Source: an uncultured Gammaproteobacteria bacterium
GTDB lineage: Bacteria; Pseudomonadota; Gammaproteobacteria; Eutrophobiales; Eutrophobiaceae
Assembly (NCBI GenBank): GCA_951812995.1
Contig: CATOTD010000002.1
Location: forward strand, 707,468 to 771,467
Direction of reading: 5' to 3'
Length of the DNA stretch: 64,000 bases
This document shows positions 1,746 through 61,059 of the stretch, in pieces (position 1 is the stretch's first letter; the number at the start of each line of letters is the position of its first letter). Both the position numbers and the translations under genes were made by a program. The notes below the pieces were generated by a model, which made no database searches, was not told where the DNA came from, and saw only the letters and a program-made list of their open reading frames with translations.

Positions 1746-1855
1746 AAACGTGCCTGACTTCTGAACTCAGATAGCCGTCTGATTTTGCAAGCGGAGACCT
1801 TTGCACAAAACACCGCATCTGAATATTTTTTATCCCGGTAATGACTCAATTTTCA

Positions 1856-2162
1856 GCGACTGGGTTGGGTTGGGTCGGATCGAGCTGGGTCGAGCTGGGT
1901 CGGACTGGGTTTGGCCGAGCGTAGCCGGGTTGGGTTGAACGGGGTCGGGCTGGATTGAGTCGAGCCAGGGCCGGGTCGGGTTGAGTCGGATCGAGCGGGT
2001 TGAGTCGGATCGAGCATGGTCGGGTTGGGTTGATCTGGGCATGGGTCGGACTAGGTTGGGCCGAGCGTAGCTGGATTGAGCTGAGCGAGGTCGGGCGTGT
2101 TCGGGCCGAATTGGATTGAGTCGAGCCGGGTTGGGCTGGGTCAAGCTGGGTTGGGCCGGGTA
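1856..2162. repeat. G-rich array of degenerate GGGTYG/GAGYYG hexamer-like repeats, with a partial head motif GACCTTTGCAC upstream at 1796-1806
   Basis: Read directly: tgggttgggttgggtcggatcgagctgggtcgagctgggtcgg...; no stop codons in two minus-strand frames, which produces spurious ORFs 1830-2216 and 1846-2220. Confidence 0.8.
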
Positions 2163-2243
2163 CTGAGCCTGGATAATCTGCTTCATCTTGACAAATTGGG
2201 GTGGTAAAGTAGACACTCATTACCTATTAAAGGATAGGACAAC

Positions 2244-5799: not shown

Positions 5800-5922
5800 A
5801 GATAGAACTCTTTAATATTGGATTATTGGATCAGTCATAATGAAAAATATGTTATGTGGCGCAATATATCATTGTACCGGTTGGCTGTTAAATTTTTTTG
5901 CTCATCAAGCAAGATTAAATGT

Positions 5923-7231
5923 GGAGACCTCGAACAACGCTGATTCTGGATGGATTTTGACGCGAGCACCAGTCGTTGTCACCCGCATAGCGGGTGTGAA
6001 GGTCAAGGTCGGTGGTATTTGAGGCTGTGTTGCGCTGTTTGGGTCTGCCAGGGCGGGTATTTCCGGAATTTGGGCGGAGTCAGGCTGTGGCCTGTCGTCG
6101 CTCGTGGAAGATGAGACGGCGGAAGTTGTAGCTCAGGTTGGCCATGGTCATGCGGGCCTTCGCACGGGTTTGACCGATTGAGCGGATGGTCAGAGCCATG
6201 GGTCCCTTCTCGTACCCGAACACATGCTCGACGCAGGCCCGAATGGCTGACCGCGTGGCGTTGCCCCGGCGAATATGCCTGGCCATGGGTTTGCCGCGCG
6301 GTTTCTTGCGGTGAATGTGTGAACGGTACCCTTGCGCCTTCAGCCAAGCCTCATTCCTGGCCGAGCGGTACCTGGCATCGGCCCAAACAGACTTCGAGCT
6401 GTTTGTCTCGTCCAGAACCGAGGAGCGTTCATGCCCGTCGTAGCGAGCCGCATTCGTGCCAGTCTCACCCCGGATGAAGCGCCATTTGCGGTCAATGGAC
6501 ACGTGGTTCTTGTACCCAAAGTGCGGAACCGAAATATCGACAAGGCCAGTATCCTCCTCACCCTCCTTGGTCGTCTTGGCCTTTGAATACTTGACCGTCC
6601 AACGCGCATCGGTGTCTTTCTGCGCTGCCTTGGACAGATCATCGGGCCAGATGTCAGACGCGGCCTCACCTGCCTTGGCGCGCGCTTTCTCTTCTTTCGT
6701 CATCCGCTGGCGCGGGGCGGAGACCAACGTGGCATCCACAATCTGACCGCCGGTCGGTTTGTATCCCCGCGCGCACAGCTGAGCTTCAAACGCGGCAAAC
6801 AGGGCCTTGAAGACACCCGCCTAGGTCAGCTTCTCTCTGAAAAGCCAGATCGTCTTCTGATCAGGTGTCGGCTCCCCGATTTGAAATCCCAGGAACCGCA
6901 GCCAACTGAAACGGTCACGAATGAGAAACTCCATCCGCTCATCGCTCAGATTGTGCATCGAGGCCAAGACCAGCACCTTGAACATCACAACGGCATCATA
7001 GGGTGGGCGACCACCTTTGGGACGTTCCCCATAGCCAAGCGCTTCAACAAGAACTGGGCGAAACACTTCGAAATCAACGTGCCGCTCCAAAACCTCAAGC
7101 GGATCTCCCATCGCCGAAAGCCGCGCCAAATGATCCGTCAAATCAAACAATCCAGGTGCGTGCATAAACAAAATCCTCCCACACCCAATGAATCAGATCA
7201 CACCCAAAATGCACGGTTTTTAGAGGCTTCC
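5923..7231 (-). mobile_element. IS5-family (ISL2-like, DUF4096+DDE) element copy A; transposase ORFs 6821-7171 and 6080-6739
   Basis: Ends GGAAGCCTCTAAAAACCG / CGTTGTTCGAGGTCTCC (imperfect IR), shared with four other copies. The halves are separated by an in-frame TAG. This copy keeps the conserved C-terminal VEHVFG frame but has other changes (DTGY to DARY). Confidence 0.85.
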
Positions 7232-7549
7232 AGCTGTGTTGACTCCGTTTCAGCTTTTTTGAGTAGTCGGTTTTATCGCTTGGAAAGTATTACCGCTATC
7301 TGGCCCCAAGCACATTGAAAATATTCAGATGGCATACTTACAACAATAGCCTTGATATTTTGATACTATTACATTGAAATTATTGATAAATTTTAGAATA
7401 CTGAATAAAAAACCGTCCGCTGATTAGCTAAATAAAGGTACTGGGTTTGAATATGTTCCAAACTATTTTCCAGTGTTATTAAAATGAATGGATAAAACTT
7501 GGGAAAGTGCCAGTAAAAATTACATAATGAGTTGCTGTGATATTGCGTC

Positions 7550-10019: not shown

Positions 10020-10067
10020 GACCTTTGCACTAAAGTGATGTTTACCCACACCCGAGTCCGCCCGACC
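10020..10067 (+). repeat. Head motif of the dispersed repeat family (GACCTTTGCACTAAAGTGAT + gtttacccacacccgagtccgcccgacc) immediately followed by IS256 copy 1
   Basis: 20-mer identical to 15565-15584; see findings. Confidence 0.8.
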
Positions 10068-10074
10068 TTATATG

Positions 10075-11427
10075 ATAACGTAAATTATCTTTCGCAAATT
10101 TGAAGAGGCGGTTTTCCTTTATCTGGTTAAATAAAAAGTGACATAACCATTTATTTGACCAGGAGAAGAGTCGCCATGAGCGATGATACAAACAAGCACT
10201 TGAACAATGTAGTCCCTATTGATGCACAGGAACTGCAGGGCCATCTCAACAAAGTGGTACTGAAGACTGTGGAAGACACCCGCAACCAGATTCTGGACGC
10301 TGAGGCTGATGCGCTGGTGGGTGCTGATCGATATGCACGCACTGAGACGCGCAAAGACGACCGGTCTGGTAGCTACACCAGGAAGCGCCACACCAGGGCC
10401 GGAGAGCTTGAGTTAAAGATGCCGAAGCTACGCAAACAGACCTTTGAGATGGCCATCATAGAGCGATACCGGCACCGTGTAGCGTCTGTCGAAGAGGCGC
10501 TGATCGAGATGTATCTGGCAGGTGTTTCAGTACAACGTGTAGAAGACATTACCGCAGCATTGTGGGGTACCCGTGTCAGCTTAGGGACTATTTCAAAGCT
10601 CAACCAGCGTATCTATGGGCAGATTGAAGAGTGGCGTAATCGCCCCATAGAGGGTGATTTCCCTTATGTATACCTGGACGGTGTTGTGCTCAAACGCAGT
10701 TGGGGCGGTGCAGTGAAGAACGTTTCTGTTCTAGTCGCCATAGGTGTTGGGGACGATGGCTACCACCGCATTCTAGGGATTGTTGAAGGTACTAAGGAGG
10801 ATAAGGTGGGATGGTCAGGATTCCTGCGTCATTTAAAGGCACGCGGTCTCAAGGGCATCAGGTTGGTGCTCAGTGATGCCTGTCTTGGGCGCAAGGAGTC
10901 GATCGGTGACTTCTACCCTGAAGCTGGCTGGCAGTGTTGTATTGTGCACTTCTACCGCAACGTCTTCAGTCATGTGTCTCGTGGTCGTGTCAAAGAAGTC
11001 TCTCGCATGTTGCAGGCTATCCATGCATCTGAATATCTGGAATCAGCCAGGCATAAGGCCACAGAGGTCGAGAAGAAACTCAGGGACATGAAGTTATCGA
11101 GTGCGGCGGATTGGCTGGGTAGTGCATGGAAGAGACCCTGACGTATTATCGGTTTCTGGCAGAGCACTGGATTCGCATTCGGACTAACAATCCTTTGGAA
11201 CGAATCATCCGAGAAATCAGGCGGCGAACACGAGTAGTGGGAGCATTCCCGGATGGCAACTCGGCGTTGATGTTTTGTGCGGCAAGGCTTAGACACATCG
11301 CGGGGAGCTAGTGGGGAACGCGGAAATATCTGAACATGGATTTGCTCCAAGAGATGGATAAAGAAAAGGATTTTCAGGTAGCGTAACAACCAGATTTAAG
11401 GGAAAGCCAAATCAGAAAGTGCGAAAG
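10075..11427 (+). mobile_element. IS256-family element copy 1; transposase frameshifted (ORFs 10155-11141 and 11126-11311)
   Basis: Mutator-type transposase (MTRRRVAMSDDTNKH..). Left end GATAACGTAAAT..ATCTTTCGCAAAT and right end ..CAGAAAGTGCGAAAG are shared by three copies. Copy 1 has a 1-bp deletion relative to intact copy 2 near 11126. Confidence 0.85.
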
Positions 11428-11531
11428 ATTATTGACACTACCGCTGGTTGAGACCTCCACGCCCTACATTTCCTGAAACAACGCGACAATGTCACAGGTG
11501 GTATTGCCTTTGGCATAGAGACTGAGAATCT

Positions 11532-12830
11532 GGAGACCTCGAACAACGCTGATTCTGGATGGATTTTGACGCGAGCACCAGTCGTTGTCACCCGCATAGC
11601 GGGTGTGAAGGTCAAGGTCGGTGGTATTTGAGGCTGTGTTGCGCTGTTTGGGTCTGCCAGGTCGGGTATTTCCGGAATTTGGGCGGATTCAGGCTGTGGC
11701 CTGTCGTCGCTCGTGGAAAATCAGACGGCGGAAGTTGTAGCTCAGGTTGGCCATGGTCATGCGGGCCTTCGCACGGGTTTGGCCGATTGAGCGGATGGTC
11801 AGAGCCATGGGCCCTTTCTCGTAGCCGAACACAGGCGCGGATGGCGGAGCGTGTCGCGTTGCCCCGACGAATATGCCTGGCCATGGGTTTGCCGCGTGGC
11901 TTCTTGCGATGGATATGTGAGCGGTACCCTTGCGCTTTGAGCCAGTCTTCGTTCTTGGACGACCGATATCCAGTATCGGCCCAAACCGCCTTCGAGCTGT
12001 TTGTCTCGTCCAGAACCGAGGAGAGTTCATGCCCGTCGTAGCGAGCCGCATTCGTGCCAGTCTCACCCCGGATGAAGCGCCATTTGCGATCAATGGACAC
12101 GTGGTTCTTGTACCCAAAGTGCGGAACCGAAATATCGACAAGGCCAGTATCCTCCTCACCCTCCTTGGTCGTCTTGGCCTTTGAATACTTGACCGTCCAA
12201 CGCGCATCGGTGTCTTTCTGCGCTGCCTTGGACAGATCATCGGGCCAGATGTCAGACGCGGCCTCACCTGCCTTGGCGCGCGCTTTCTCTGCTTTCGTCA
12301 TCCGCTGGCGCGGGGCAAAGACCAACGTGGCATCCACAATCTGACCGCCGGTCGGTTTGTATCCCCGCGCGCAGAGCTGAGCTTCAAACGCGGCAAACAG
12401 GGCCTTGAAGACACCCGCCTAGGTCAGCTTCTCTCTGAAAAGCCAGATCGTCTTCTGATCAGGTGTCGGCTCCCCGATTTGAAATCCCAGGAACCGTAGC
12501 CAACTGAAACGGTCACGAATGAGAAACTCCATCCGCTCATCACTCAGATTGTGCATCGAGGCCAACACCAGCACCTTGAACATCACAACGGCATCATAGG
12601 GTGGGCGACCACCTTTGGGACGTTCCCCATAGCCAAGTGCTTCAACAAGAACTGGGCGAAACACTTCGAAATCAACGTGCCGCTCCAAAACCTCAAGCGG
12701 ATATTCCATCGCCGAAAGCCGCGCCAAATGATCCGTCAAATCAAACAATCCAGGTGCGGGCATAAACAAAATCCTCCCACATCAAGTGAATCAGACCGTA
12801 CCACAAAATGTACGGTTTTTAGAGGCTTCC
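11532..12830 (-). mobile_element. IS5-family (ISL2-like) element copy B; ORFs 12419-12769 and 11612-12337
   Basis: Same ends as copy A; in-frame TAG between domains and an 11-nt deletion that frameshifts the conserved C-terminus. Confidence 0.85.
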
Positions 12831-13192
12831 AGATGGGTGCTTCTTGACCAGTGCTGGCGCCAAGCTACCCTTTCTGTCGCGGGGTGTTTCCAGCTCGAAT
12901 GCGCCCTCTTCAGTGCGTAGCATTTTATGACTGCGACCATTGCGGTTATTGGATTTTCCTGCCTACTCATGTCTGGCATAGCCAAGGTGTTCATCGAACT
13001 CGGCATTCAGTGCCGCCTCAATGCTTACCCTGGTCAATGCCTGACGGAACGTATACAGGTCTTCTTCGGTTTTGATGCCCCTGGCAGTTTCACGTGCCAG
13101 TGATTTGATTGCTTCGGGTTGCATGTGCTTATCCTCAGCCCCTTCGGGGCAATAATCAATGATAAGCAGTTACATAGTTTTTGGGGCTGTCT
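12831..13192 (-). mobile_element. N-terminal fragment of a second IS256-like element, interrupted by IS5 copy B
   Basis: Minus-strand translation MQPEAIKSLARETARGIKTEEDLYTFRQALTRVSIEAALNAEFDEHLGYARHE-stop is a typical IS256-family transposase N-terminus; the segment is duplicated at 49804-50165. Confidence 0.75.
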
Positions 13193-13314: not shown

Positions 13315-14412
13315 ATGTCCGGCAATACATTTGGAAAATTATTCACCATCACCAGTGCTGGTGAAAGCCATGGCTTTGGTTACGTCTGCATTGTTGATGG
13401 CTGTCCGCCAGGATTAGGCCTATCGGAAGCCGATATACAACACGATCTGGATCGTCGTAAACCGGGTAAGTCGCGGCATGTGACCCAACGTAGGGAATCC
13501 GATACGGTCAAAATCATATCGGGGGTGTTTAAGGGTGTGACGACGGGTACGCCGATAGGACTTCTGATTGAAAACGAAGATCAAAAATCAAAAGACTACA
13601 ACAACATTAAAGCGATGTTCCGACCCGGGCATGCCGATTATACTTACCAACAAAAATTTGGGATCCGTGATTATCGTGGTGGTGGCCGTGCCTCTGCGCG
13701 TGAGACCTGTATGCGTGTCGCCGCCGGTGCTATTGCCAAGAAATATCTGCAAGCGCAATTTGGGTTAGTTATTCGTGCTTATCTTGCGCAAATTGGGACC
13801 ATCAAAATCGATCTTAAAGATTGGGATGCGGTAGAAAACAATACATTCTTTTGCCCTGATCCTGGGCGTGTTGCAGAGTTAGATCATTATATGGACGCGC
13901 TCCGTAAAGCAGGAGAATCTATAGGGGCGCGTATTAATATTGTTGCTGAAAATATACCGATTGGCTTAGGTGAGCCGATATTTGATCGCCTAGATGCTGA
14001 TATCGCCAAGGCAATGATGAGTATCAATGCGGTCAAAGGTGTGGAAATAGGCGCAGGGTTTGATGCAGTGGAACACAAAGGATCCGAGCATCGCGATGAA
14101 ATGACACCGACCGGTTTTATGGGTAATAATGCCGGTGGTATTTTAGGGGGCATCTCATCGGGCCAGGATATTTTAGTCAGTATCGCGCTGAAACCCACTT
14201 CTAGTATCCGCTTGCCAGGCAAGACGATAAATGAATCAGGACAGGCGGTTCAGGTTATTACCAAGGGTCGACACGATCCTTGTGTCGGTATTCGAGCGAC
14301 ACCGATTGCCGAGGCAATGTTGGCATTGGTCTTAATGGATCATGTCTTAAGGCATCGTGCACAATGCGCGGACGTTAAGTCTGAAACTCTGATTACGCCT
14401 CCATCCAAATAA
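13315..14412 (+). CDS. aroC: Chorismate synthase
   Basis: 365 aa; N-terminus [18 protein letters not shown] matches AroC. Confidence 0.95.
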
Positions 14413-15578
14413 TGATTAACGTTGCCGGCTTGCCTTACTGGCGACTGTCCGGTTTTTATTTTCTGTTTTTTATTACCATCGGCTGTTTTATGCCGTATTG
14501 GTCGCTTTATCTCAAATCAATAGGCATGACTGCTGAGGACATCGGGATTCTTTCTGCGGTCGTTGTCGCAACAAAAATATTTTCCGCGTTTCTCTGGGGC
14601 TGGATCGTTGACCATACCGGTAAGCGTATGCAAGTAATACGTTATACCTCATTATTATCGATGTTGTCGTTTTCACTGGTGTTGTTTTACCAGGATTTCT
14701 GGTCGTTATTTATCATTCTTTTTATGTTTTCAATATTCTGGAGTGCCGCTTTACCTCAACTTGACGCAGCCACTTTATCTCATCTCGGCAAAGAGAGTGA
14801 TAGTTATACCGTGGTGCGTATATGGGGGTCGATCAGTTTTATTATCGCTGTACTTGCCCTAGGCCAATTTTTTGATCGCCAACCTATAGATTATTTATTA
14901 CCCATTATTATTTTTACCATGGCGCTGGTTTGGATACATTCTTTATTTATCCCGAAGATGCGCGCTGCACGCGAACAGTCGAATGGCCTGACATTCAAGT
15001 CTATCTTGTGTAAGCCGCATGTTATTACGTTAATGGTTGTGTGTTTTCTGGTCCAGGCAAGCCATGGTCCGTATTACACATTTTTTTCTATTTACCTTGA
15101 AGATCATGGTTACTCCAATAGTTTTATCGGTACGTGCTGGGCATTAGGCGTTTTTGCTGAGGTTATAATCTATATTTTTATCCATAAGGTTATAGGTCGT
15201 TTTGGATTGCGAAAATTAATGATCCTCACATTGATATGCGCAACGGCGCGCTGGTTGTTGATCGCATTTCTTGTAGAAAATATATTGATATTATTATTTG
15301 CGCAATGTTTACATGCCGCTACATTTGGCATTTATCACGCCGTCGCGATTCAATATATTCATCGTGAATTCAAGGGCGCACACCAGGGGCGTGGCCAGGC
15401 ACTTTACAGCAGTATCAGCTTTGGTGCGGGTCTCGCATTAGGCAGTTTGATCAGCGGCTATCTTTGGGATCTGATTGGTGCCATGCAGACTTTTCTTTTT
15501 GCCGCCACACTCAGTGCGACAGGTGTCATCGTTGCCTGGATTGGATTGCAAGCGCATGAATCAAGACCTTTGCACTAA
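14412..15578 (+). CDS. MFS transporter (HcaT/PPP-like family), conserved downstream of aroC
   Basis: 388 aa, 12 predicted TM helices; last codons and stop are supplied by the repeat head motif. Confidence 0.8.
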   Translation: MINVAGLPYWRLSGFYFLFFITIGCFMPYWSLYLKSIGMTAEDIGILSAVVVATKIFSAFLWGWIVDHTGKRMQVIRYTSLLSMLSFSLVLFYQDFWSLFIILFMFSIFWSAALPQLDAATLSHLGKESDSYTVVRIWGSISFIIAVLALGQFFDRQPIDYLLPIIIFTMALVWIHSLFIPKMRAAREQSNGLTFKSILCKPHVITLMVVCFLVQASHGPYYTFFSIYLEDHGYSNSFIGTCWALGVFAEVIIYIFIHKVIGRFGLRKLMILTLICATARWLLIAFLVENILILLFAQCLHAATFGIYHAVAIQYIHREFKGAHQGRGQALYSSISFGAGLALGSLISGYLWDLIGAMQTFLFAATLSATGVIVAWIGLQAHESRPLH

Positions 15579-15912
15579 AGTGATACTTGACCATACCCGT
15601 CTCGACTCAACCCAGCTTGACCCAGCCCGGTCAAGCTCGATCCAACCCGACCATGCCCGACTCGACTCAACCCAGCTCGACCCAGCCCGGTCAAGCTCGA
15701 TCCAACCCGACCAAGCCCGACCCGACTCGACTCAGCCCGGTCCAGATCGACCCAACCCCGACCTGTCTTGACTCAACCCGACTCAGCCCGGTCCAGCTCG
15801 ATCCAATCCGACCTGTCTCGACTCAGCCCCGGCTCGACTCAGATCTACCACGACCCGATCACATCCAGCCCGACCCGTCTCGACCCGACCAAGCCCGACC
15901 CGACTCAGCCTA
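15565..15912 (+). repeat. Dispersed repeat element: head GACCTTTGCACTAAAGTGATACTTGACCATACCCG followed by ~320 bp of degenerate C-rich CGACYC/CAACCC/CAGCCC hexamer-like repeats
   Basis: Read directly; C about 45%, G about 17%; stop-free in all three plus frames, producing artefact ORFs 15475-15771, 15587-15964 and 15768-15968. Confidence 0.85.
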
Positions 15913-15920
15913 TATTCGGG

Positions 15921-16319
15921 CTAGCCTGGGTCTTTATTCATCATATGATTCGCCGTGCGCGTGAATGAGGACATGAGCTGTTCCTTGAACATGGTGTCAA
16001 CACGCATCTCTGCCAACGCTTTGTGCATACACATCAACCATTGATCCCGCTCTTCGGTACCAATCGGAAAAGGCAAATGCCGGGCACGTAGCTGCGGGTG
16101 GCCAAAGGCGGCAACATAACGATCCGGCCCACCCATCCAACCACTGAGAAACATAAAAAACTTTTCGCGCGAATGCTTAAGATCTTTTGGATGTAAATTA
16201 CGGATCAACGTTGCCTCAGGCAAAGTATCCATGTTGTCATAAAATAATGTCACTAACTGCTGCAATCCTTCATCCCCACCAATGCGATCATACGGTTTTT
16301 TAATGTTTGTCTCGTTCAT
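15921..16319 (-). CDS. glbO: Group II truncated haemoglobin (trHbO/GlbO)
   Basis: 132 aa; YDRIGG..LVTLFYDNM..HPQLRARHLPFPIG motifs typical of 2-on-2 haemoglobins. Confidence 0.8.
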   Translation of the reverse strand: MNETNIKKPYDRIGGDEGLQQLVTLFYDNMDTLPEATLIRNLHPKDLKHSREKFFMFLSGWMGGPDRYVAAFGHPQLRARHLPFPIGTEERDQWLMCMHKALAEMRVDTMFKEQLMSSFTRTANHMMNKDPG

Positions 16320-25957: not shown

Positions 25958-26125
25958 GCTGTTCTATTCTCATATATCGGTCTTGGTAACTCCGTGTAGC
26001 CCAAAATGATGCCACTGCCACACCATCATTAAGATACGGTAAAACCGCATAATAGCGTATTTTCCCAACTTCTAAAACGCATACCGAGACATGAATTTGA
26101 GTCGTTGATCAAGCAGTACCATTGC

Positions 26126-26310
26126 GGGCGGCTAGCCAGCGGGTGGCGGACGGTTCACTGCCAGCCCCGGTCAACATAACAACAAGCCAGCGGATAGTGG
26201 GCGGCTCACTGCCGACCCTGGTCAACCCAATGACAGGCCAGCGGGATGCTGGTAAGGCTGAGTATTATGGCGAACCAGTGGCGGATGGCTCACTACCGAC
26301 CCCGGTCAAT
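26126..26310. repeat. Three direct copies of a ~40-bp unit (CCAGCGGRTRGTGGSGGMYGGYTCACTRCCRRCCCYGGTCAAY); the third carries a 31-bp insert
   Basis: Units start near 26136, 26196 and 26237/26279; located between the catalase 3' end and the pssA start. Confidence 0.7.
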
Positions 26311-26342
26311 GCGTATGCGTCGGCCTTGCCTTGCGCGCCCGT

Positions 26343-27776
26343 TTACATGCCCAAGGCCTTTGCAACCCCCGCCCCATACTCTGGGTCGGCCTTGGCACAG
26401 TGTGCGATATGACGTTGTTTCACCGCATCGGTCACGCCTGTCATTGCCGCTGCCGTGTTATTAAATAACGCTTGCTGTTGCGCGGGTGTCATCAGACGAA
26501 ATAGCGCCCCAGGCTGTGAGAAGTAATCATCGTCATCCTCACGATGATCCCAGTGTGCGGCAGTGCCAGACAACGCCAGTGGTGGTTCAGAAAAATCCGG
26601 TTGTTCGGCCCACTCGCCCTGATTGTTTGGTTCATGGCCTACTGTGCCGCCAAAATTACCATCGACTCGCATCGCCCCATCACGATGATAGCTATGCACA
26701 GGACAACGAGGCGCATTCACTGGTATCTGCAGATGATTCACGCCCAAACGATACCGCTGCGCATCGCCGTAGGAGAATAATCTACCCTGTAACATCTTAT
26801 CGGGCGAAAAACTGATACCAGGCACTACGTTTGCCGGATTAAAGGCTGCTTGCTCAACTTCTGCAAAGAAATTTTCCGGATTTTTGTTTAACTCCATCGT
26901 ACCCACTGCAAGCAAAGGGTAATCGGCATGGGGCCATATTTTAGTCAGATCAAACGGATTGAATGGACAATTTTGTGCCTGCTCATCTGTCATGATCTGA
27001 ATCTTTAAGGTCCAGGATGGATAATCGCCATTCTCGATAGACTCATATAGATCACGTTGATGACTCTCACGATCTTGACCAATCAACACGGCTGCTGCTT
27101 CATTATCAAGATTCTCAATACCTTGCTTGCATTTGAAGTGAAATTTCACCCAAATCCGTTCGTTTTTATCATTAATCATGCTAAAGGTATGACTGCCGAA
27201 ACCGTGCATATTGCGATACGTTTTTGGTATGCCTCGATCACTCATCACGATGGTGACTTGATGTAGTGCTTCTGGCAAAGATGTCCAAAAATCCCAGTTA
27301 TTTTGCGCGCTACGCATGTTAGTGCGTGGGTCGCGCTTAACAGCATGATTCAAATCTGGAAACTTCAATGGATCCCGTAAAAAAAATACCGGCGTATTGT
27401 TGCCAACTAAATCCCAATTCCCTTCTTCGGTATAAAATTTAACGGCAAAGCCACGAATATCGCGTTCTGCATCAGCCGCACCACGTTCACCCGCAACGGT
27501 CGTGAAACGAGCAAACAGCGCGGTTTTTTTACCGACTTCCGAGAAAATACTGGCACGCGTGTATTGTGTAATATCATGCGTAACAGTAAACGTACCATAC
27601 GCACCCGAACCTTTTGCGTGCATGCGGCGCTCCGGAATGACTTCGCGATCAAAATGCGCCAGCTTTTCAAGAAACCAGACATCCTGTAATAATTGCGGGC
27701 CACGCGACCCGGCCGTCAATACGTTTTGATTATCAGCAACCGGACAACCCGCCGCTGTGGTTAATTTTTTGCTCAT
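26343..27776 (-). CDS. katA: Monofunctional haem catalase (clade 3, KatA-like)
   Basis: Start at [10 protein letters not shown]; catalase core motifs RERIPERVVHAKG-like ([12 protein letters not shown]), FDRERIPER region. Confidence 0.9.
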
Positions 27777-28022
27777 AGATAGTCTCCAAATGTTTAGGAA
27801 AAATACTACAAAATGCACAAGTATATTGATAATTGATTTTTTGTATTACGCTAATAGTAGAAAATTATTAGTATTCAGGGTTATACAATCTGCATTTGCT
27901 CATCTTGGCATGCGTCCATGCTTGATGTTTTTCTTACAATTTACCACCACTGATAATTGCGGTTATTTAGCATTGCCAGGCCCGCACTGATAGACTCTCG
28001 TCTATAACGCCTAATACCATAA

Positions 28023-30774: not shown

Positions 30775-31120
30775 ACCCGACATTGTGCCTACAAGAGGTC
30801 AGATGCAGCATGTTATTAGCCAGCCCCTCAACACCCTGTTTGATTACCCGCAGGATATGCACAAGGCAATCTATACCACCAACGCCATTGCATCGCTCAA
30901 CAGCGTCATCAGGAAAGCCATCAAAAAACGTAAGTTGTTTCCAACCGACGACGCTACCAGAAAGGTGAGCTATCTGGCGATTCAAGATGCATCAAAGCAG
31001 TGGACTATGCCGATTAAATATTGGCAACCAGCGATGAATCGCTTTATGATCGAATTCGAAGACCGACTAAAGGACTTCGTTTAAGCAACGGCAGTTACAC
31101 AGAATTTGGGAAAGGCTCGG
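30775..31120 (+). mobile_element. C-terminal fragment of the second IS256-like element
   Basis: ORF 30785-31084 ends ..LFDYPQDMHKAIYTTNAIASLNSVIRKAIKKRKLFPTDDATRKVSYLAIQDASKQWTMPIKYW.., near-identical to 57860-58198; element end ..GGCTCG abuts a partial head motif at 31121-31137. Confidence 0.8.
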
Positions 31121-31145
31121 CTTTAGTGCAAAGGTCGCATTCATT

Positions 31146-33354
31146 TCAATCTTGCAAGCCATAACTTTCCCATAATTCCTTTGCCAATACATAAGCCTTT
31201 TTACGTTCTTCACGTGTCATGCGAGATTCTATCTCATCACGTAATGCTTCGGCTGGTTTGTATCCACTGGCAGCAACAATGCCTATCCATGCGTAGGCTT
31301 GAATAATATTTTTTTCGACAATGATGCCATCATAATACAATTTGCCCAGATGATATTGAGCCATTATATGTTTCCCCCGGGCTGCTTTGACAAACCATGT
31401 CAACGCGGCGGACGCATCTTGCGGCACACCTAATCCTTCTTGATACATATTCAGCAGGTTTTTTTGTGATTTTGCAAACCCTTGTTTTGCAGCCTTGCGA
31501 TACCATGCAATCGCCGCCGTGTAATCTGGAAGCCTCTAAAAACCGTGCATTTTGTGGTACGATCTGATTCACTTGATGTGGGAGGATTTTGTTTATGCAC
31601 GCACCTGGATTGTTTGATTTGACGGATCATTTGGCGCGGCTTTCGGCGATGGAATATCCGCTTGAGGTTTTGGAGCGGCACGTTGATTTCGAAGTGTTTC
31701 GCCCAGTTCTTGTTGAAGCACTTGGCTATGGGGAACGTCCCAAAGGTGGTCGCCCACCCTATGATGCCGTTGTGATGTTCAAGGTGCTGGTGTTGGCCTC
31801 GATGCACAATCTGAGTGATGAGCGGATGGAGTTTCTCATTCGTGACCGTTTCAGTTGGCTGCGGTTCCTGGGATTTCAAATCGGGGAGCCGACACCTGAT
31901 CAGAAGACGATCTGGCTTTTCAGAGAGAAGCTGACCTAGGCGGGTGTCTTCAAGGCCCTGTTTGCCGCGTTTGAAGCTCAGCTGTGCGCGCGGGGATACA
32001 AACCGACCGGCGGTCAGATTATGGATGCCACGTTGGTCTTTGCCCCGCGCCAGCGGATGACGAAAGAAGAGAAAGCGCGCGCCAAGGCAGGTGAGGCCGC
32101 ATCTGACATCTGGCCCGATGATCTGTCCAAGGCAGCGCAGAAAGACACCGATGCACGTTGGACGGTCAAGTATTCAAAGGCCAAGACGACCAAGGAGGGT
32201 GAGGAGGATACTGGCCTTGTCGATATTTCGGTTCCGCACTTTGGGTACAAGAACCACGTGTCCATTGATCGCAAATGGCGCTTCATCCGGGGTGAGACTG
32301 GCACGAATGCGGCTCGCTACGACGGGCATGAACTGTCCTCGGTTCTGGACGAGACAAACAGCTCGAAGGCAGTTTGGGCCTATACCAGGTACCGCTCGGC
32401 CAGGAATGAGGCTTGGCTGAAGGCGCAAGGGTACCGCTCACATATCCATCGCAAGAAGCCACGCGGCAAACCCATGGCCAGGCATATTCGTCGGGGCAAC
32501 GCGACACGCTCCGCCATCCGCGCCTGTGTTCGGCTACGAGAAAGGGCCCATGGCTCTGACCATCCGCTCAATCGGCCAAACCCGTGCGAAGGCCCGCATG
32601 ACAATGGCCAACCTGAGCTACAACTTCCGCCGTCTGATTTTCCACGAGCGACGACAGGCCACAGCCTGACTCCGCCCAAATTCCGGAAATACCCGCCCTG
32701 GCAGACCCAAACAGCGCAACACAGCCTCAAATACCACCGACCTTGACCTTCACACCCGCTATGCGGGTGACAACGACTGGTGCTCGCGTCAAAATCCATC
32801 CAGAATCAGCTTTGTTCGAGGTCTCCATCTTGACTGATGCCGAGATTATTTTCATACATAACACCTAGGTCATGTTGCGCACTCGCCGTACCTTTATCTG
32901 CGGCCTTGCGATACCATTTGGCGGCCTCTTTATAATCTTGTTTAACACCAATGCCTTCATGAAACATATACGCTAAATTTGCTTCGGCCTCAGCATTGCC
33001 CTGTACGGCAGCATTGCGCGCCCACTTCAGTGCCAACCAATAGTCTCGCTTAACGCCAAAACCGAGAATATATAACTGTGCCAATCTTATCTGCGACTCT
33101 GCAACACCTTGTTCTGCGGCCTTTTGAAACCAGCTTGCAGCTTGCGTATAATCCCGTTCAACACCCAGGCCTCTTTCATACATTAAGCCAAGATAGTTTT
33201 GCGCGCGACTATTGCCGGCCTTTGCCAACGGTGTAAATTGAGCCCATGCTGTTTTATATTCATGCGCATTATAGGCCTCAACAGCAAGGTCAAATTCAGA
33301 TTGCCCGCAGGCAGACAACATCACCAGCAAAAATATTAAGCCATTTTTTTTCAT
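31146..33354 (-). pseudogene. Sel1-repeat lipoprotein gene split by IS5-family copy C (N-part 32827-33354, C-part 31146-31527)
   Basis: N-part has a lipoprotein signal MKKNGLIFLLVMLSAC and Sel1 repeats. Removing the IS and one copy of the 4-bp duplication ATCT restores the continuous Sel1 repeat ..GISQDYTAAIAWYRKAAKQG.. Confidence 0.85.
31528..32826 (+). mobile_element. IS5-family (ISL2-like) element copy C with a 4-bp target-site duplication ATCT (31524-31527 and 32827-32830)
   Basis: Ends GGAAGCC...GGTCTCC; ORFs 31589-31939 and 32021-32746; in-frame TAG and C-terminal frameshift. Confidence 0.9.
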
Positions 33355-42338: not shown

Positions 42339-43184
42339 ATGGGATACACTATAGAGATGGATGATAAAAACAAAATCATTACCCGGTTTGAGGCGACAGA
42401 TGATGCGCCGCAAAGTATATCTACCCAGCATGGAGAAATAGCCTGTTATTCAAACCGATCACCCCACAAGACAGATATTACCCATAACAAAAATGCGGTA
42501 AATGAAGATGCCTTAGGCATCATTCCAATCGCTGCAGACACAACCGTGCTGGTTATTGCCGATGGACTTGGCGGTATGCCTGCTGGCGAGCAGGCCTCAC
42601 AAATCATGATCGAATGTTTAATGTCCGCCTTAAACAATACCGGCATAGTCGTGCGTGAGGCCATCTTAAATAGCATTGATAAAGCGCACAAAACAATACT
42701 GGATCTGAAGATCAATGCGGGCACAACTGTATCTATTGTTGAATTAACGGGTCATAAATTAAGGACTTATCATGCTGGAGATTCCTCAATTTTGCTTATT
42801 ACAAATCATGGCAATATCAAGTATCAGACACTTTTTCATTCACCCGTTGGCTACGCACTTGCCTGCGGGGTGCTGAATCAAGAACAGGCTATGCGTCACC
42901 CGGAACGCAATTTCATATCAAATTATGTGGGTTGTGCAGGCCTGTATGTCACTATGAGCGGCATTATCGAACTTGATCCAAATGACACCATCATGCTTGC
43001 GAGTGATGGTCTGACTGACAATCTATACGATAAAGAAATCTGCACGTTTATGCGTCATGGATCTTTGTTGGAAGGCACTAAAGAACTTATATCGCAGTGT
43101 AATAAAAATATGCACGAATCCCGGCCCGACCGACTGTGTCATCCTGATGATCTAACATTAATCGCCTTTCGACAACATACTTGA
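42339..43184 (+). CDS. PP2C-family (PPM) serine/threonine protein phosphatase
   Basis: ADGLGGMPAGEQAS and DG(L)TD motifs; no cognate kinase gene in the window. Confidence 0.75.
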   Translation: MGYTIEMDDKNKIITRFEATDDAPQSISTQHGEIACYSNRSPHKTDITHNKNAVNEDALGIIPIAADTTVLVIADGLGGMPAGEQASQIMIECLMSALNNTGIVVREAILNSIDKAHKTILDLKINAGTTVSIVELTGHKLRTYHAGDSSILLITNHGNIKYQTLFHSPVGYALACGVLNQEQAMRHPERNFISNYVGCAGLYVTMSGIIELDPNDTIMLASDGLTDNLYDKEICTFMRHGSLLEGTKELISQCNKNMHESRPDRLCHPDDLTLIAFRQHT

Positions 43185-43575
43185 CTGTCGGTCCAGCCCG
43201 ACCCGACTTGACTCACGACCGCCCCGACTCCGCCCGTCTCAACCCAGCTCAACTCACGACCGCCCCGACTCCGCCCGGCCCAGCTCAACCCGACCCTAAC
43301 CAACGCCGTCCGCCTCAACCTAGCTCAACTCAACCCCGGTCCGACTTGACTCACGCCCGCCCCGACTCCGCCCGGCCCAGCTCACCCCGACCCAACCCAG
43401 CCCTAACCAACGCCGTCCGCCTCAACCTAGCTCAACTCAACCCCGGTCCGACTTGACTCCGCCTGGCTCAACTCAACTCACGGCCGTCCCGACTCCGCCC
43501 GACCCAGCTCAACCCGGCCTGGCCTGACTCAACTCAACCCGACCCGACCCAGTCCGACCCGGCCCGACCCAGCCA
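43179..43575 (+). repeat. Dispersed repeat element: ACTTGAC junction overlapping the PP2C stop codon, followed by ~390 bp of C-rich CGACYC-type repeats with an internal ~100-bp higher-order duplication
   Basis: Segments 43275-43350 and 43373-43458 are near-identical; the last ~15 codons of ttcA are encoded inside the array. Confidence 0.8.
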
Positions 43576-44403
43576 AGCCGCACGATCTGACGATGCACCA
43601 CCTTGATCTTTACCGAGCTGCTGAAATGAAAAAGCCGTTGTATCCAATAAATGTGATGGCACAATATTTTGCATACTGGTAAAAATAGTTTCTACTCGAC
43701 CGGGTTGTTGTTTGTTCCAATCTCTCAACATTTGCTTGATAGCCTGACGCTGCATATTGTCCTGCGACCCGCAGAGTGTACACGGTATGATAGGAAAGGC
43801 CGCGGCCTCTGCATAGGCTTTTATATCGGCCTCTGCACAATAGACCAACGGTCGAATAACGATGTTTTCTCCGTCATCACTGCGTAATTTCGCCGGCATT
43901 GATTTCAACTTGCCACCATAAAACATATTCAGAAATAGTGTTTCAATCATATCTTCGCGATGATGCCCCAACGCTATTTTCGTATACCCTTGCGCTTTAG
44001 CAAAACGATAGATAATCCCCCGGCGCAACCTTGAACATAATCCACAATAATAGGTCTTATCTGCGGGGATAACGCGCTTGACGACACTATAGGTGTCTTC
44101 TTCAATGACATGATATTCAATGCCAAGTGCATCCAGATAATCAGGCAGTACCTGTGCTGGAAAACCCGGCTGCTTTTGGTCGAGATTGACCGCGATCAAT
44201 TCAAAATCAACGGGTGCGCTGCGTTGCAGGCTTTGCAAGATATCCAACATCGTATATGAATCTGCACCGCCCGACAGGCACACCATAATCCGATCACCGG
44301 CTTCAATCATATTAAAATCGGCAATAGCACGTCCTGCATGACGACGTAAACGCTTGTGTAGTTTATCGTGGTGATACTTTTCTTTATGCAGTGCTGTAGC
44401 CAT
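43534..44403 (-). CDS. ttcA: tRNA 2-thiocytidine(32) synthetase TtcA
   Basis: Start [15 protein letters not shown]..; PP-loop CLSGGADS and the CxxC cysteines typical of TtcA. Confidence 0.9.
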
Positions 44404-44405
44404 TA

Positions 44406-44783
44406 TCAGCGCTGCCCGCCAGCACACGGATAGTTTTTATTAAGTGCTTCAACGACTAAATTTTGCGCTTCATCTTCTGAGCGTGTCGATTGTGCTTGCA
44501 AATAGGCCATTACATTCTCTGTTGCCGCTTCTAGGCGAACCACCTGTGGATCTATACAAAAAATAGGGGCACTCTGCTCTTGTTGCTGGATGCCTAATAT
44601 AGTTTGCACTAAGCCGAAAACGTAGCGCATACAATACTGATTTGGCTTGCCCGGGCTGTATCCTTCTGCACAAGCGGCTAATAGTTCACCGGCGGTTATT
44701 AATGGCGGCTCTTCTGCCTCGGCCGATACTATTTTCGAATTAAACAATCCCGTGCTTATTAAGGAACCTCTGATTAATTCCAT
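44406..44783 (-). CDS. Hypothetical protein; apparent start codon and first 8 codons are supplied by the left end of the adjacent IS5/InsH-like element (likely 5'-truncated gene)
   Basis: Minus-strand ATGGAATTAATCAGAGGTTCCTTA lies inside the IS inverted repeat at 44757-44783. Confidence 0.4.
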
Positions 44784-48502: not shown

Positions 48503-48504
48503 CT

Positions 48505-49803: not shown

Positions 49804-50165
49804 AAATGGGTGCTGCTTGACCAGTGCTGGCGCAAAGCTACCCTTTCTGTCGCGGGGTGTTTCCAGCTCGAATGCGCCCTCTTCAGTGCGTAGCATTTTA
49901 TGACTGCGACCATTGCGGCTATTGGATTTTCCTGCCTACTCATGTCTGGCATAGCCAAGGTGTTCATCGAACTCGGCATTCAGCGCTGTCTCAATGCTTA
50001 CCCTGGTCAATGCCTGACGGAACGTATACAGGTCTTCTTCGGTTTTGATGCCCCTGGCAGTTTCACGTGCCAGTGATTTGATTGCTTCGGGTTGCATGTG
50101 CTTATCCTCAGCCCCTTCGGGGTAATAATCAATGATAAGCAGTTACATGGTTTTTGGGACTATCT
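49804..50165 (-). mobile_element. N-terminal fragment of the second IS256-like element (duplicate of 12831-13192)
   Basis: About 97% identical to 12831-13192; joins the right end of IS5 copy D. Confidence 0.75.
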
Positions 50166-53332: not shown

Positions 53333-53588
53333 TTTGCTACCTCAAAAGCGGCACTTTATTTATATTCATTTGATAAGCGTCAATAGTTTCACTTTTTATT
53401 TAAAAAAGCAATATATATCCATGTTTTATATGAATAATAGTATATTTTATTGGAGAGTCAACTGGTATGAGGAAAGACTTGTCAGCAACGTTTACAGGCC
53501 GAGACCTTTGCAGAAAATACCGCATTTGAAGATTTTTTATCCCGTCTATGGCCGACGGCAATGGTTCAATGTTCAGCCACTGGGCATG

Positions 53589-53675
53589 GTCAAGCGGAGT
53601 CGGGTCGGGTTGAGCGGAGCCGGGTCGGGTCGGGCTAGGTGTGGGTTAGTCAAGTATCGCTTTAGTGCAAAGGTC
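53589..53675 (-). repeat. Dispersed repeat element on the minus strand: head GACCTTTGCACTAAAGCGATACTTGAC overlapping the tsaE stop codon, followed by a short C-rich array
   Basis: Plus strand reads gtcaagcggagtcgggtcgggttgagcggagccgggtcgggtcgggctaggtgtgggttagtcaagtatcgctttagtgcaaaggtc. Confidence 0.8.
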
Positions 53676-54120
53676 CGAGGCCCTGTAAAATGATCTCGCC
53701 TGCGGGTGAGCAGGATTTAATTTCTATCCCTCGACCAACATCACAATCGGTAAGCGACAAGATTATATCGGCTGGCGGAAGTACGGTTTTGCCTTGTTCT
53801 GGCCACTCAAAAAAACAGATCGCGCAGCTATCACAATAATCGCGGATACCGATTACCTCAAGCTCTTCAGGGTCATTTATTCTATATAAATCAAAGTGAT
53901 AAATATCATGTCCGGCAACAACATAAGACTCAAGTAAGGTATAGGTAGGGCTTTTAACATGACCCGCATAACCCAATGTATTTAATACACCTCGAACCAA
54001 AGTCGTCTTGCCGGCACCCAAATCACCCCGTAGATAAATCCTCTCCCCACCCTGTAAACCACCCGCTACTTTAGCACCCAAGGCCAGCGTTTGTGCTTCA
54101 TTTTCCAAGATAAGGCGCAT
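53662..54120 (-). CDS. tsaE: tRNA threonylcarbamoyladenosine biosynthesis ATPase TsaE
   Basis: P-loop GDLGAGKTTLVRG; 152 aa. Confidence 0.9.
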   Translation of the reverse strand: MRLILENEAQTLALGAKVAGGLQGGERIYLRGDLGAGKTTLVRGVLNTLGYAGHVKSPTYTLLESYVVAGHDIYHFDLYRINDPEELEVIGIRDYCDSCAICFFEWPEQGKTVLPPADIILSLTDCDVGRGIEIKSCSPAGEIILQGLGPLH

Positions 54121-59727: not shown

Positions 59728-59729
59728 CT

Positions 59730-61028: not shown

Positions 61029-61059
61029 AACTTGTCAGACACTACTTTTGACAATAGCT

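What the first reader, a model, noticed from the sequence alone, without database searches (positions are those of the whole stretch)
15565..15912. Dispersed intergenic repeat family: conserved head plus variable C-rich hexamer array
A conserved head (GACCTTTGCACTAAAGYGATACTTGACC) followed by 60–390 bp of degenerate CGACYC/CAACCC/CAGCCC hexamer-like repeats occurs at 15565-15912, 43179-43575 and 53589-53675 (minus strand). A head with a short tail occurs at 10020-10067, and a headless inverted array at 1856-2162. Partial heads occur at 1796-1806 and 31121-31137. Arrays are C about 45% and G about 17% on the strand that continues the upstream gene's mRNA, and they sit at gene 3' ends. This does not look like REP/BIME, CRISPR or any IS. 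C-rich, G-poor unstructured RNA is the classic Rho utilisation (rut) signature, so these may be evolved Rho-dependent terminators or a novel MITE-like element.
Basis: partly seen in the sequence, partly recalled or inferred. Interest (0 to 1): 0.75.

Follow-up and report, generated by a model that had tools for sequence, protein, structure and literature searches.

The report
IS5-type MITE carrying C-rich minisatellite
The dispersed "head plus C-rich array" repeat is best read as a small non-autonomous transposon with IS5-family ends whose interior is an expandable 5-base repeat array; this is an unusual variant of a known kind of element, and there is no evidence here that it is an evolved terminator.

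Summary
The array unit is a degenerate pentamer, C-R-R-C-Y, with 10/20/60/107-nt higher orders. It is not a hexamer.

The "head" is a terminal inverted repeat (TIR). GACCTTTGCACTAAAG is identical to the left end of a 1,202-bp IS5-family insertion sequence in Arenicella MAGs. It shares the 12-nt GAGACCTTTGCA with ISNme1 of Neisseria and with the BrickBuilt MITE of Porphyromonas gingivalis, which is built as leader + minisatellite + tail.

One copy is complete (53501-53677, minus strand). It has both TIRs and a 5-bp flanking direct repeat, which matches the 5-bp target duplications of the related elements. The other five copies lack a head or a tail, or are cut by IS256.

The MFS and TsaE genes read into the head and use its TAA as their stop codon. 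Orthologous MFS loci in relatives lack the element.

Each array carries its own recent internal duplications. Nothing similar turned up in Rfam, plasmids, metagenomes, viral contigs or protein databases.

The rut/Rho idea fits the base composition only. Orientation is 3:1 among the informative copies, and one array is G-rich downstream of polA.

Verdict: a new variant of a known kind, of moderate interest.

The parts
53501..53677 (-). Copy F, the only complete element. Head with TIR at 53648-53677, array at 53589-53647, tail with TIR at 53501-53588.
   Evidence: The two TIRs pair as GACCTTTGCA...TGCAAAGGTC. The tsaE ORF (53662-54120, minus strand) ends at the TAA inside the head.
53678..53682 (-). 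GGCCT, head-side copy of the putative 5-bp target-site duplication of copy F. The other copy is at 53496-53500.
   Evidence: Read. Related elements have 5-bp duplications: AGCGT in L019 and ACTAT in L020. The call is ambiguous, because the site restored by excision is a 17-nt palindrome, TTTACAGGGCCTGTAAA.
53496..53500 (-). GGCCT, tail-side copy of the putative target-site duplication of copy F.
   Evidence: Removing the element and one GGCCT gives ATT TTA CAG GGC CTG TAA (…ILQGL*). That length matches TsaE homologues that end …ILKQL*.
15565..15912 (+). Copy C. Head at 15565-15592, 320-nt array at 15593-15912, no tail.
   Evidence: A 60-nt higher-order repeat occurs 2.5 times at 92% identity. 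The MFS ORF 14412-15578 ends at the TAA in the head. Its C-terminus is GLQAHESRPLH*, against GLKDN* in relatives.
43179..43575 (+). Copy E. Degenerate head (only ATACTTGAC is retained), about 390-nt array at 43187-43575, no tail.
   Evidence: A 107-nt higher-order repeat occurs 2.1 times at 88% identity. The PP2C ORF 42339-43184 stops at the TGA in ACTTGAC. The convergent PP-loop ORF 43534-44427 ends inside the array.
1794..2165 (-). Copy A. Tail with canonical TIR GAGACCTTTGCAC at 1794-1856, 309-nt array at 1857-2165 (G-rich on the plus strand), head missing.
   Evidence: (D20). It lies between polA (3-1745, +) and a DUF2782 gene (2244-2582, +).
10020..10076 (+). Copy B. Head plus the first ~25 nt of array, and beyond that an IS256-family element.
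   Evidence: (D5/D6). The head-to-array junction ACCCACACC is shared with copy F.
31120..31136 (-). Copy D. A 17-nt head remnant (GACCTTTGCACTAAAGC) that abuts the end of an IS256 fragment at 30821-31119. It begins 9 nt after the stop codon of a Sel1-repeat ORF.
   Evidence: (I10).
10077..11420 (+). IS256-family insertion sequence that truncates copy B. It is not part of the family and is listed only for the boundary.
   Evidence: transpos_IS256, 327 bits for the paralogous copy.

Best explanation
The family is a non-autonomous derivative of an IS5-family insertion sequence, that is, a MITE. Its ends are the IS-type terminal inverted repeats GAGACCTTTGCAC(W)AAA(S). Its interior is a strand-asymmetric minisatellite built from a degenerate pentamer, C-R-R-C-Y.

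- **Shown:** the anatomy (head/TIR, array, tail/TIR); identity of the head to a real IS5-family TIR; one complete copy flanked by a 5-bp direct repeat; absence from the one orthologous site examined in relatives; and recent tandem duplications private to each array.
- **Inferred, mobility:** copies were moved in trans by an IS5-family transposase that recognises these ends. No such IS lies in the window.
- **Inferred, array dynamics:** arrays grow and shrink in place by replication slippage or unequal recombination.
- **Inferred, decay:** most copies are now immobile relics. They have lost a head or a tail, been cut by IS256, or had the terminal GA replaced at the head end.
- **Visible effect on the host:** insertion at the extreme 3' end of genes, where the head supplies new stop codons. 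MFS and TsaE both now end in ...PLH*.
- **Terminator effect:** any terminator-like effect of the C-rich RNA would be a by-product.
For: - **The head is an IS end.** Head positions 3-18 are identical to the left TIR of a 1,202-bp IS in Arenicella MAG locus L019. That IS carries IS5-family transposase fragments (NF033581, DUF772) and a 5-bp TSD, AGCGT. A 78-bp MITE with the same TIRs and a 5-bp TSD occurs in a Thiomicrorhabdus MAG, L020.
- **Published precedent.** GAGACCTTTGCA/TGCAAAGGTCTC are the TIRs of ISNme1 (IS5 family) and of BrickBuilt, a MITE made of leader + imperfect tandem repeats + tail. Many BrickBuilt copies lack a leader or a tail (PMC4596501).
- **Complete copy.** 53501-53677 has both TIRs and flanking GGCCT repeats.
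- **Conserved tail.** It is present in two copies.
- **No coding content.** The ORFs that run through the arrays have no Pfam match.
- **Insertion.** The MFS C-terminus differs from 11 homologues exactly where the element begins. Orthologous loci in relatives with 81-83% amino-acid identity lack both TIR and array. Excision of copy F restores a TsaE C-terminus of typical length.
- **In-place expansion.** Within-array higher-order repeats are 88-100% identical: 60 nt x2.5, 107 nt x2.1, 19 nt x2.1, 20 nt x1.9. The best matches between arrays are only 72-81% over 42-63 nt.
Against: - Only one of six copies is complete, so the TIR-plus-TSD evidence rests on a single case. That TSD is ambiguous because the flank is palindromic.
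- All four heads lack the canonical terminal GA (they have AA, GC, CG, GC), while positions 3-18 are invariant.
- Copies B, C and D share about 23 nt upstream of the head, GGNTTGCAAG..TGAWTCAA. TTTGCAAGCG/TTTACAGGCC also lies just outside both tail TIRs. The true boundary may therefore be further out, or copies may have spread by something other than clean transposition.
- No IS with these TIRs is present in the 64 kb. The resident 1.3-kb IS5-family element shares only the terminal GGAGACCT.
- The rest of the genome could not be retrieved.
Confidence: 0.68

Rival explanations
1. The arrays are selected Rho-utilisation (rut) cassettes. Once the head's stop codon releases ribosomes, the C-rich, G-poor RNA rich in YC dinucleotides loads Rho and ends transcription at gene 3' ends. 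The element may still be mobile; in this reading the terminator function is what maintains it.
For: - C/G ratios are 2.2-3.1, sustained over 60-390 nt, and fall in the top 0.3-2% of 78-nt windows.
- There are about 30 YC dinucleotides per 100 nt, against 11 in the window overall.
- The array RNAs fold no better than shuffled sequence (z -1.8 and +2.7).
- Head-bearing copies follow a co-oriented ORF, and the head holds stop codons used by three ORFs.
- That C-rich, G-poor, unstructured RNA marks rut sites is established knowledge, not something tested here.
Against: - Orientation is uninformative for the two longest plus-strand arrays, which lie between convergent genes.
- Among the informative copies the count is 3 co-oriented to 1 opposed. 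Copy A is G-rich on the polA transcript.
- Copy F lies between the co-directional tsaE and amidase genes. The same pair is adjacent in a relative. If they are co-transcribed, a terminator there would be polar on the amidase gene.
- Relatives with compact genomes manage without the arrays.
- The 15.6-kb array contains a 9-bp hairpin in each 60-nt unit.
- The composition is a property of the pentamer itself, so it is not independent evidence of selection.
Confidence: 0.15
2. The arrays are an independent host minisatellite or structural DNA element, for example one that forms G-quadruplexes or i-motifs. The IS5-type TIRs are remnants of insertions that target the arrays or happen to lie beside them. 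In this reading the arrays are not the interior of a MITE.
For: - Three of the four arrays lack a canonical head or lack a tail.
- All 19 canonical G4 motifs in the window, counting both strands, lie on the G-rich strand of the arrays.
- The region is an IS nest. IS256 has twice inserted into copies of the element.
Against: - The head-to-array junction is conserved in sequence across copies: ACTTGAC followed by ACCCACACC/ATACCCG in B, C, E and F.
- The array-to-tail junction CCCAGTSGCTGAA is conserved in A and F.
- In the complete copy the array lies inside the two TIRs.
- No array occurs without at least one of these junctions.
Confidence: 0.1
3. The arrays encode low-complexity protein segments, either as C-terminal extensions or as small ORFs.
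For: The C-rich strand carries long open frames: 125 aa at 15587-15964, 124-128 aa at 1830-2220 (minus strand), and 91 aa at 43181-43456.
Against: - A 5-nt period is incompatible with a codon-based repeat.
- The open frames follow simply from a T/A-poor composition.
- Head stop codons separate the arrays from the upstream ORFs.
- There are no Pfam matches.
- There are no homologues among 5.8 billion clusters. Only four low-complexity chance hits were found among 1.84 billion representatives.
Confidence: 0.02

Closest known systems
BrickBuilt MITE of Porphyromonas gingivalis (Klein et al. 2015, Mob DNA 6:18, PMC4596501)
   Same: - The architecture matches: leader + variable imperfect tandem-repeat array + tail, closed by short IS5-type TIRs.
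- The TIR consensus GAGACCTTTGCA/TGCAAAGGTCTC is the same 12-mer.
- Many copies lack a leader or a tail.
- It has a limited host range.
- No transposase remnant is present.
   Different: - The BrickBuilt repeat unit is 23 nt, not a 5-nt degenerate C-R-R-C-Y unit.
- No strong C/G strand asymmetry is reported for BrickBuilt.
- Its leaders and tails are much longer (up to 285 and 318 nt).
- It is always intergenic, 49-591 nt from coding sequences, whereas copies here fuse to stop codons.
- The host phylum is different.
- No homology beyond the TIR was demonstrated here.
ISNme1/Arenicella-type IS5-family insertion sequences and their small MITEs (e.g. Neisseria ATR; the 78-bp element in L020)
   Same: - The terminal inverted repeat is identical: 16 of 16 nt against the Arenicella IS left end, and 12 nt against ISNme1.
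- The relatives have 5-bp target duplications, and the complete copy here has a 5-bp flanking repeat.
   Different: - There is no transposase.
- The interior is replaced by a minisatellite.
- The head-side terminal GA is not conserved.
- No autonomous partner was seen in the window.
Rho-dependent terminators / rut sites
   Same: A long untranslated stretch that is C-rich, G-poor, dense in YC dinucleotides and poorly structured, placed directly after stop codons.
   Different: - Known rut sites are not dispersed repeats with IS ends or a 5-nt periodicity.
- Function was not tested here.
- Orientation relative to transcription is not consistent across copies.
REP/BIME, CRISPR and MIRU-type interspersed repeats
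   Same: Like REP/BIME and MIRU, the elements are dispersed, mostly intergenic and sit near gene 3' ends. MIRU loci also vary in the number of tandem units.
   Different: - There is no REP-type palindromic unit.
- There is no repeat-spacer organisation.
- The unit is 5 nt, not 24-100 nt.
- IS5-type TIRs are present.

Membership tests
MITE (non-autonomous DDE-transposon derivative) | Terminal inverted repeats matching those of an autonomous IS | tested here: met
   Copy F has GACCTTTGCA...TGCAAAGGTC at its two ends. Head positions 3-18 equal the left TIR of the IS5-family IS in L019 and L024. The same 12-mer is published for ISNme1.
MITE (non-autonomous DDE-transposon derivative) | Target-site duplication flanking complete copies | tested here: inconclusive
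   The single complete copy is flanked by GGCCT on both sides. This agrees with the 5-bp TSDs of L019 and L020. However, the flank is palindromic, a 3-bp reading (TCG) is also possible, and there is only one case.
MITE (non-autonomous DDE-transposon derivative) | Small size, no transposase gene, several copies | tested here: met
   The element is 177 bp when complete, and the longest relics are about 400 bp. Six copies or remnants lie in 64 kb. The array ORFs have no Pfam match.
MITE (non-autonomous DDE-transposon derivative) | Cognate autonomous IS in the same genome | not testable with these tools
   No such IS is present in the window: all six GACCTTTGCA sites belong to the element. The rest of the genome could not be fetched.
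MITE (non-autonomous DDE-transposon derivative) | Empty orthologous sites in relatives | tested here: met
   Orthologous MFS 3' ends in L053 and L055-L059 carry no TIR and no array. These relatives share only 81-83% amino-acid identity, so this is weak evidence of recent insertion.
BrickBuilt family (P. gingivalis) | 23-nt tandem repeat with BrickBuilt leader and tail sequences | tested here: not met
   The repeat unit here is 5 nt, with 10/20/60/107-nt higher orders. Only the 12-nt TIR is shared. The architecture is the same, but this element is not a member.
Rho-dependent terminator (rut site) | C-rich, G-poor, weakly structured untranslated RNA of about 80 nt or more | tested here: met
   C is 0.46-0.53 and G 0.17-0.18. 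C/G is 2.2-3.1 in 78-nt windows. Folding z-scores are -1.8 and +2.7.
Rho-dependent terminator (rut site) | Rho-dependent 3' ends, sensitive to bicyclomycin | not testable with these tools
   No transcript data are available.
Rho-dependent terminator (rut site) | Consistent sense orientation relative to the terminated transcript | tested here: inconclusive
   Three informative copies are co-oriented (B, D, F) and one is opposed (A). Two copies lie between convergent genes and carry no information.
REP/BIME or CRISPR | Palindromic 20-40-nt REP units, or 24-48-nt repeats alternating with unique spacers | tested here: not met
   TRF and autocorrelation show contiguous 5/10-nt periodicity with no spacers. 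Rfam gave no hit.

The most novel reading that the evidence does not exclude
The MITE-borne (C-R-R-C-Y)n arrays could be portable, self-expanding, orientation-dependent transcription or replication barriers. The C-rich transcript would act as an idealised Rho-loading site. The G-rich strand holds every canonical G-quadruplex motif in the window and would act as a structural roadblock. Together they would form mobile bidirectional terminators that settle between convergent genes. This would be a new functional class of bacterial MITE.
Probability: 0.1. Interest if true: 0.75.

Novelty: new variant of a known kind. Interest (0 to 1): 0.4.

Why it matters
It gives a second, phylogenetically distant example of a bacterial MITE with IS5-type ends and a minisatellite interior; the first is BrickBuilt in Bacteroidota. 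That suggests this architecture recurs. The array here is unusual in three ways: it has a degenerate 5-nt unit, extreme C/G strand asymmetry, and G-quadruplex potential.

The element has also rewritten the C-termini and stop codons of housekeeping genes. That matters for annotating MAGs with heavy IS loads.

If the arrays do load Rho or form G4 structures, they would be a natural system for studying mobile terminators. None of that is shown here.

Tried and rejected
- **Neisseria-type uptake sequences.** The motif GCCGTCTGA near 1770 suggested a Neisseriaceae genome. No DUS or USS dialect occurs in the window.
- **Rfam.** No match at gathering thresholds over the whole window, and none at E<=1 on two element loci. 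There are no tRNA or tmRNA genes.
- **Genome-collection scan with the 16-mer head.** It returned 52 hits. Most are chance matches inside genes. Only the Arenicella, Thiotrichaceae and Thiomicrorhabdus hits are IS or MITE ends.
- **Metagenome scan with the 20-mer head.** One chance hit.
- **Viral-contig scan with an array 16-mer.** 35 chance hits, and no periodic arrays in 319 kb.
- **blastn against plasmids.** No match for the array or for the complete copy.
- **Protein searches with array ORFs.** Nothing real.
- **Fetching the source genome.** Proteins 100% identical to the window's sit on an 811,639-bp contig, but every exact-protein look-up failed.
- **The resident 1.3-kb IS5-family IS as the parent.** Its ends share only GGAGACCT with the element's TIR, so it is not convincing.
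- **An outer TIR related to the inverted repeat downstream of tsaE in relative L060.** The similarity is 10 of 13 nt, and the window has 35 matches at that stringency. The left flank also aligns as native tsaE coding sequence. Treated as chance.
- **Copies A and C as two halves of one split element.** Their flanks are inverted relative to each other, not direct, so this was rejected.
Full report

Yes, with corrections.
- The 28-nt head GACCTTTGCACTAAAGYGATACTTGACC is exact at 15565-15592 (+). It has one mismatch at 53648-53675 (-). None is expected by chance.
- Its first 16-20 nt recur at 10020 (+) and 31120-31136 (-).
- With IS copies and arrays masked, GACCTTTGCA is the commonest 10-mer in the window, at six copies.
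- C-rich arrays follow at 15593-15912 and 43187-43575 on the plus strand. Arrays at 53589-53647 and 1857-2165 are C-rich on the minus strand. Composition is C 0.46-0.53 and G 0.17-0.18.
- A periodicity scan over about 520 kb (this window plus loci fetched from other genomes) flagged only the three long arrays in this window.

**2. Corrections to the description**

*The repeat unit is a pentamer, not a hexamer.*
- The match fraction is about 0.5 at lags 5, 10, 15 and 20, and 0.16-0.25 at lags 2, 3, 7 and 8.
- The in-phase profile is C (0.82), R, R, C (0.79), Y. Between 88% and 92% of positions fit it, against at most 76% in shuffles.
- The strict pattern (CRRYY)x6 occurs 16 times, always inside arrays, with none expected.
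- Higher orders sit on top of the pentamer: 10 and 20 nt generally; a 60-nt unit x2.5 at 92% (15589-15736); a 107-nt unit x2.1 at 88% (43252-43463); 19 nt x2.1 at 100% (1977-2015); and 20 nt x1.9 at 94% (53593-53630).
- The best matches between arrays are only 72-81% over 42-63 nt. Each array has therefore expanded locally and recently.

*There is a conserved tail.*
- Positions 1784-1837 match 53491-53544 at 87% (D20).
- The tails align from the array junction CCCAGTSGCTGAA to ...GGGATAAAAAATMTTCARATGCGGTRTTTTSTGCAAAGGTCTC.
- The tail ends in the inverted copy of the start of the head.

*The short copies are truncated.* The copy at 10020 and the remnant at 31120-31136 are each cut by an IS256-family element.

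*The head at 43179 is degenerate.* Only ATACTTGAC is retained.

**3. What the head is**

Scanning one genome per species with the 16-mer head returned mostly chance hits inside genes. Four loci from Arenicella MAGs, one from a Thiotrichaceae MAG and one from a Thiomicrorhabdus MAG had the motif as GAGACCTTTGCACTAAAG at the edge of a repeat.
- In L019 it is the left end of a 1,202-bp element. The right end is the inverted copy (GAGACCTTTGCGCTAAAC). The element is flanked by a 5-bp duplication, AGCGT. It carries ORFs that match the IS5-family transposase model NF033581, with homologues annotated as IS5-like.
- L024 holds an internally deleted 718-bp copy.
- L020 holds a 78-bp MITE with the same ends and a 5-bp duplication, ACTAT.
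- In a 12-sequence alignment, positions 3-11 (GACCTTTGC) and 15-17 are invariant. Positions 3-18 of all four window heads equal the Arenicella left TIR.
- A full-text search for GACCTTTGCA found Klein et al. 2015 (PMC4596501). That paper lists GAGACCTTTGCAAAA/TTTTGCAAAGGTCTC as the TIRs of ISNme1 (IS5 family, Neisseria). It lists GAGACCTTTGCA/TGCAAAGGTCTC as the TIRs of BrickBuilt.
- BrickBuilt is a P. gingivalis MITE made of a leader, 1-22.8 imperfect 23-nt tandem repeats, and a tail. It has 19 copies, many lacking a leader or a tail.

The architecture seen here is therefore a known kind.

**4. Evidence of insertion**
- Copy F (53501-53677, minus strand) has both TIRs, which pair in the predicted fold. 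It is flanked by GGCCT at 53678-53682 and 53496-53500.
- Removing the element and one GGCCT gives ATT TTA CAG GGC CTG TAA, that is ...GEIILQGL*. This aligns in length with TsaE homologues that end ...GESILKQL*. With the element in place, TsaE ends ...ILQGLGPLH*, using the TAA in the head.
- The MFS transporter likewise ends ...GLQAHESRPLH* at the head's TAA, where 11 homologues end GLKDN* or similar.
- Orthologous MFS loci from relatives (81-83% identity, GC 0.40-0.42) have no TIR and no array.
- The PP2C ORF stops at the TGA in the ACTTGAC remnant of the head. The Sel1-repeat ORF stops 9 nt before a head.

**5. Context and the Rho hypothesis**
- Copies C and E lie between convergent genes: MFS and globin, and PP2C and a PP-loop ATPase. 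Either orientation would put a head next to a co-oriented 3' end, so these two copies are uninformative.
- Copy F lies between the co-directional tsaE and amidase genes and is co-oriented with them. The same two genes are adjacent in a relative.
- Copies B and D follow co-oriented ORFs.
- Copy A lies between the co-directional polA and DUF2782 genes in the opposite orientation, so polA read-through meets G-rich RNA.
- That gives 3:1, which is not a significant bias.
- In composition, the arrays are what a rut site should look like. C/G is 2.2-3.1 in 78-nt windows (top 0.3-2%). There are about 30 YC dinucleotides per 100 nt against 11 overall. They fold no better than shuffled sequence (z -1.8 and +2.7).
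- These properties follow from the pentamer itself, so they are not independent evidence of selection. The 15.6-kb array also has a 9-bp hairpin in each 60-nt unit.
- I rate a genuine terminator role at about 0.15. It is not excluded and cannot be tested here.

**6. Distribution**

Nothing comparable was found in any of the following:
- Rfam;
- PLSDB plasmids;
- JGI metagenomes, using the 20-mer head;
- IMG/VR;
- protein databases queried with array-encoded ORFs.

Proteins identical to the window's come from an 811,639-bp NCBI/ENA contig. That record could not be retrieved. Genome-wide copy number, the presence of an autonomous partner and strain polymorphism therefore remain untested. The window contains no IS with these TIRs. 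Its abundant 1.3-kb IS5-family element shares only the terminal GGAGACCT.

**7. What remains unexplained**
- (a) All four heads replace the canonical terminal GA with AA, GC, CG or GC, although the next 16 nt are invariant. Both tails keep GAGACC.
- (b) Copies B, C and D share about 23 nt upstream of the head, GGNTTGCAAG(AT|CG)..CA(G)TGAWTCAA. B and C match at 19 of 23 positions (p about 0.007 against shuffles). TTTGCAAGCG and TTTACAGGCC lie just outside the two tail TIRs. TTGCAAG occurs 22 times in the window, four of them within 25 nt of an element end.
- In copies C and D this stretch is in frame and encodes G-L-Q. MFS homologues natively have GL[KQE] at that point. I therefore cannot tell whether it is native flank (a target preference, perhaps for sequences that resemble the IS's own end) or part of a longer leader.
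- (c) The site restored by excising copy F is a 17-nt palindrome, which makes the TSD call ambiguous.
- (d) All 19 canonical G-quadruplex motifs in the window lie on the G-rich strand of the arrays.

**8. Verdict**

This is a decaying family of non-autonomous elements with IS5-type ends whose interior is a strand-asymmetric pentamer minisatellite (confidence about 0.68). It is a new variant of a known kind: a MITE containing a minisatellite, as in BrickBuilt. It is not a categorically new element, and nothing here shows it to be a terminator. Interest is moderate.

Noticed in passing
window 5909-7235 (-), 11516-12834 (-), 31524-32840 (+), 48500-49807 (+), 59725-61040 (+): Five copies of a ~1.3-kb IS5-family insertion sequence, 95-98% identical. 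Its ends are TGGAGACCTCGAACAAAGC and CTGGAAGCCTCTAAAAACCG. The transposase frame is broken in some copies: DUF772 sits in a 116-aa ORF at 31589-31939, whereas the ORF at 59791-60948 is 385 aa.
   Followed up: partly
window 10077-11420, 47147-48495, 58373-59720; fragments at 30821-31119, 57825-58123, 12815-13170 and 49788-50140: Three IS256-family copies plus fragments. An IS256 copy directly followed by the 1.3-kb IS5 element recurs as a block at 47147-49814 and 58373-61039 (spacing 11,225-11,226 nt). A similar pairing occurs at 10077-12834. Insertion sequences make up roughly a quarter of the window.
   Followed up: partly
window 44750-45955 and 63327-64000: A third IS type: a classic IS5-group element with a 325-aa DDE_Tnp_1 transposase and TIR TTAAGGAACMTCTGATYAATT. 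There is one full copy. A second, truncated copy runs off the end of the window and is fused at 63327 to an unrelated ORF.
   Followed up: partly
window-wide, both strands (arrays at 1857-2165, 15593-15912, 43187-43575): Every canonical G-quadruplex motif (G3+N1-7 x4) in the 64 kb, 19 overlapping matches in all, lies on the G-rich strand of the long arrays. With looser loops (N1-12), the short 53.6-kb array scores as well.
   Followed up: partly
L060 3498-3633 (a relative's tsaE-amidase spacer): In the closest available relative, the 455-nt spacer after tsaE holds a different inverted-repeat element, CGTTTGTCAGGGCCAGTTG...CAAATGGCCCTGACAAACG (19-nt arms, 98 nt apart). A second 22-nt inverted repeat there overlaps the tsaE 3' coding end. 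This intergenic site seems prone to acquiring repeats.
   Followed up: partly
window 26134-26244: A 51-nt tandem repeat, x2.2 at 78% identity. It is unrelated to the arrays and lies where ORFs 26122-26412 (+) and 26343-27818 (-) overlap.
   Followed up: no
window as a whole, compared with L053 and L055-L059: The window has a GC content of about 0.46 and is full of insertion sequences. The nearest relatives, at 81-83% MFS identity, have GC 0.40-0.42, tightly packed or overlapping genes and no IS in the loci examined. Gene order after the MFS gene also differs. This pattern would fit a lineage undergoing IS expansion.
   Followed up: no
window 11421-11515: The 95 nt between the IS256 copy and the inverted 1.3-kb IS contain TTGAGACCTCCACGCC. 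This looks like a solo IS5-type end, a remnant of another insertion.
   Followed up: no
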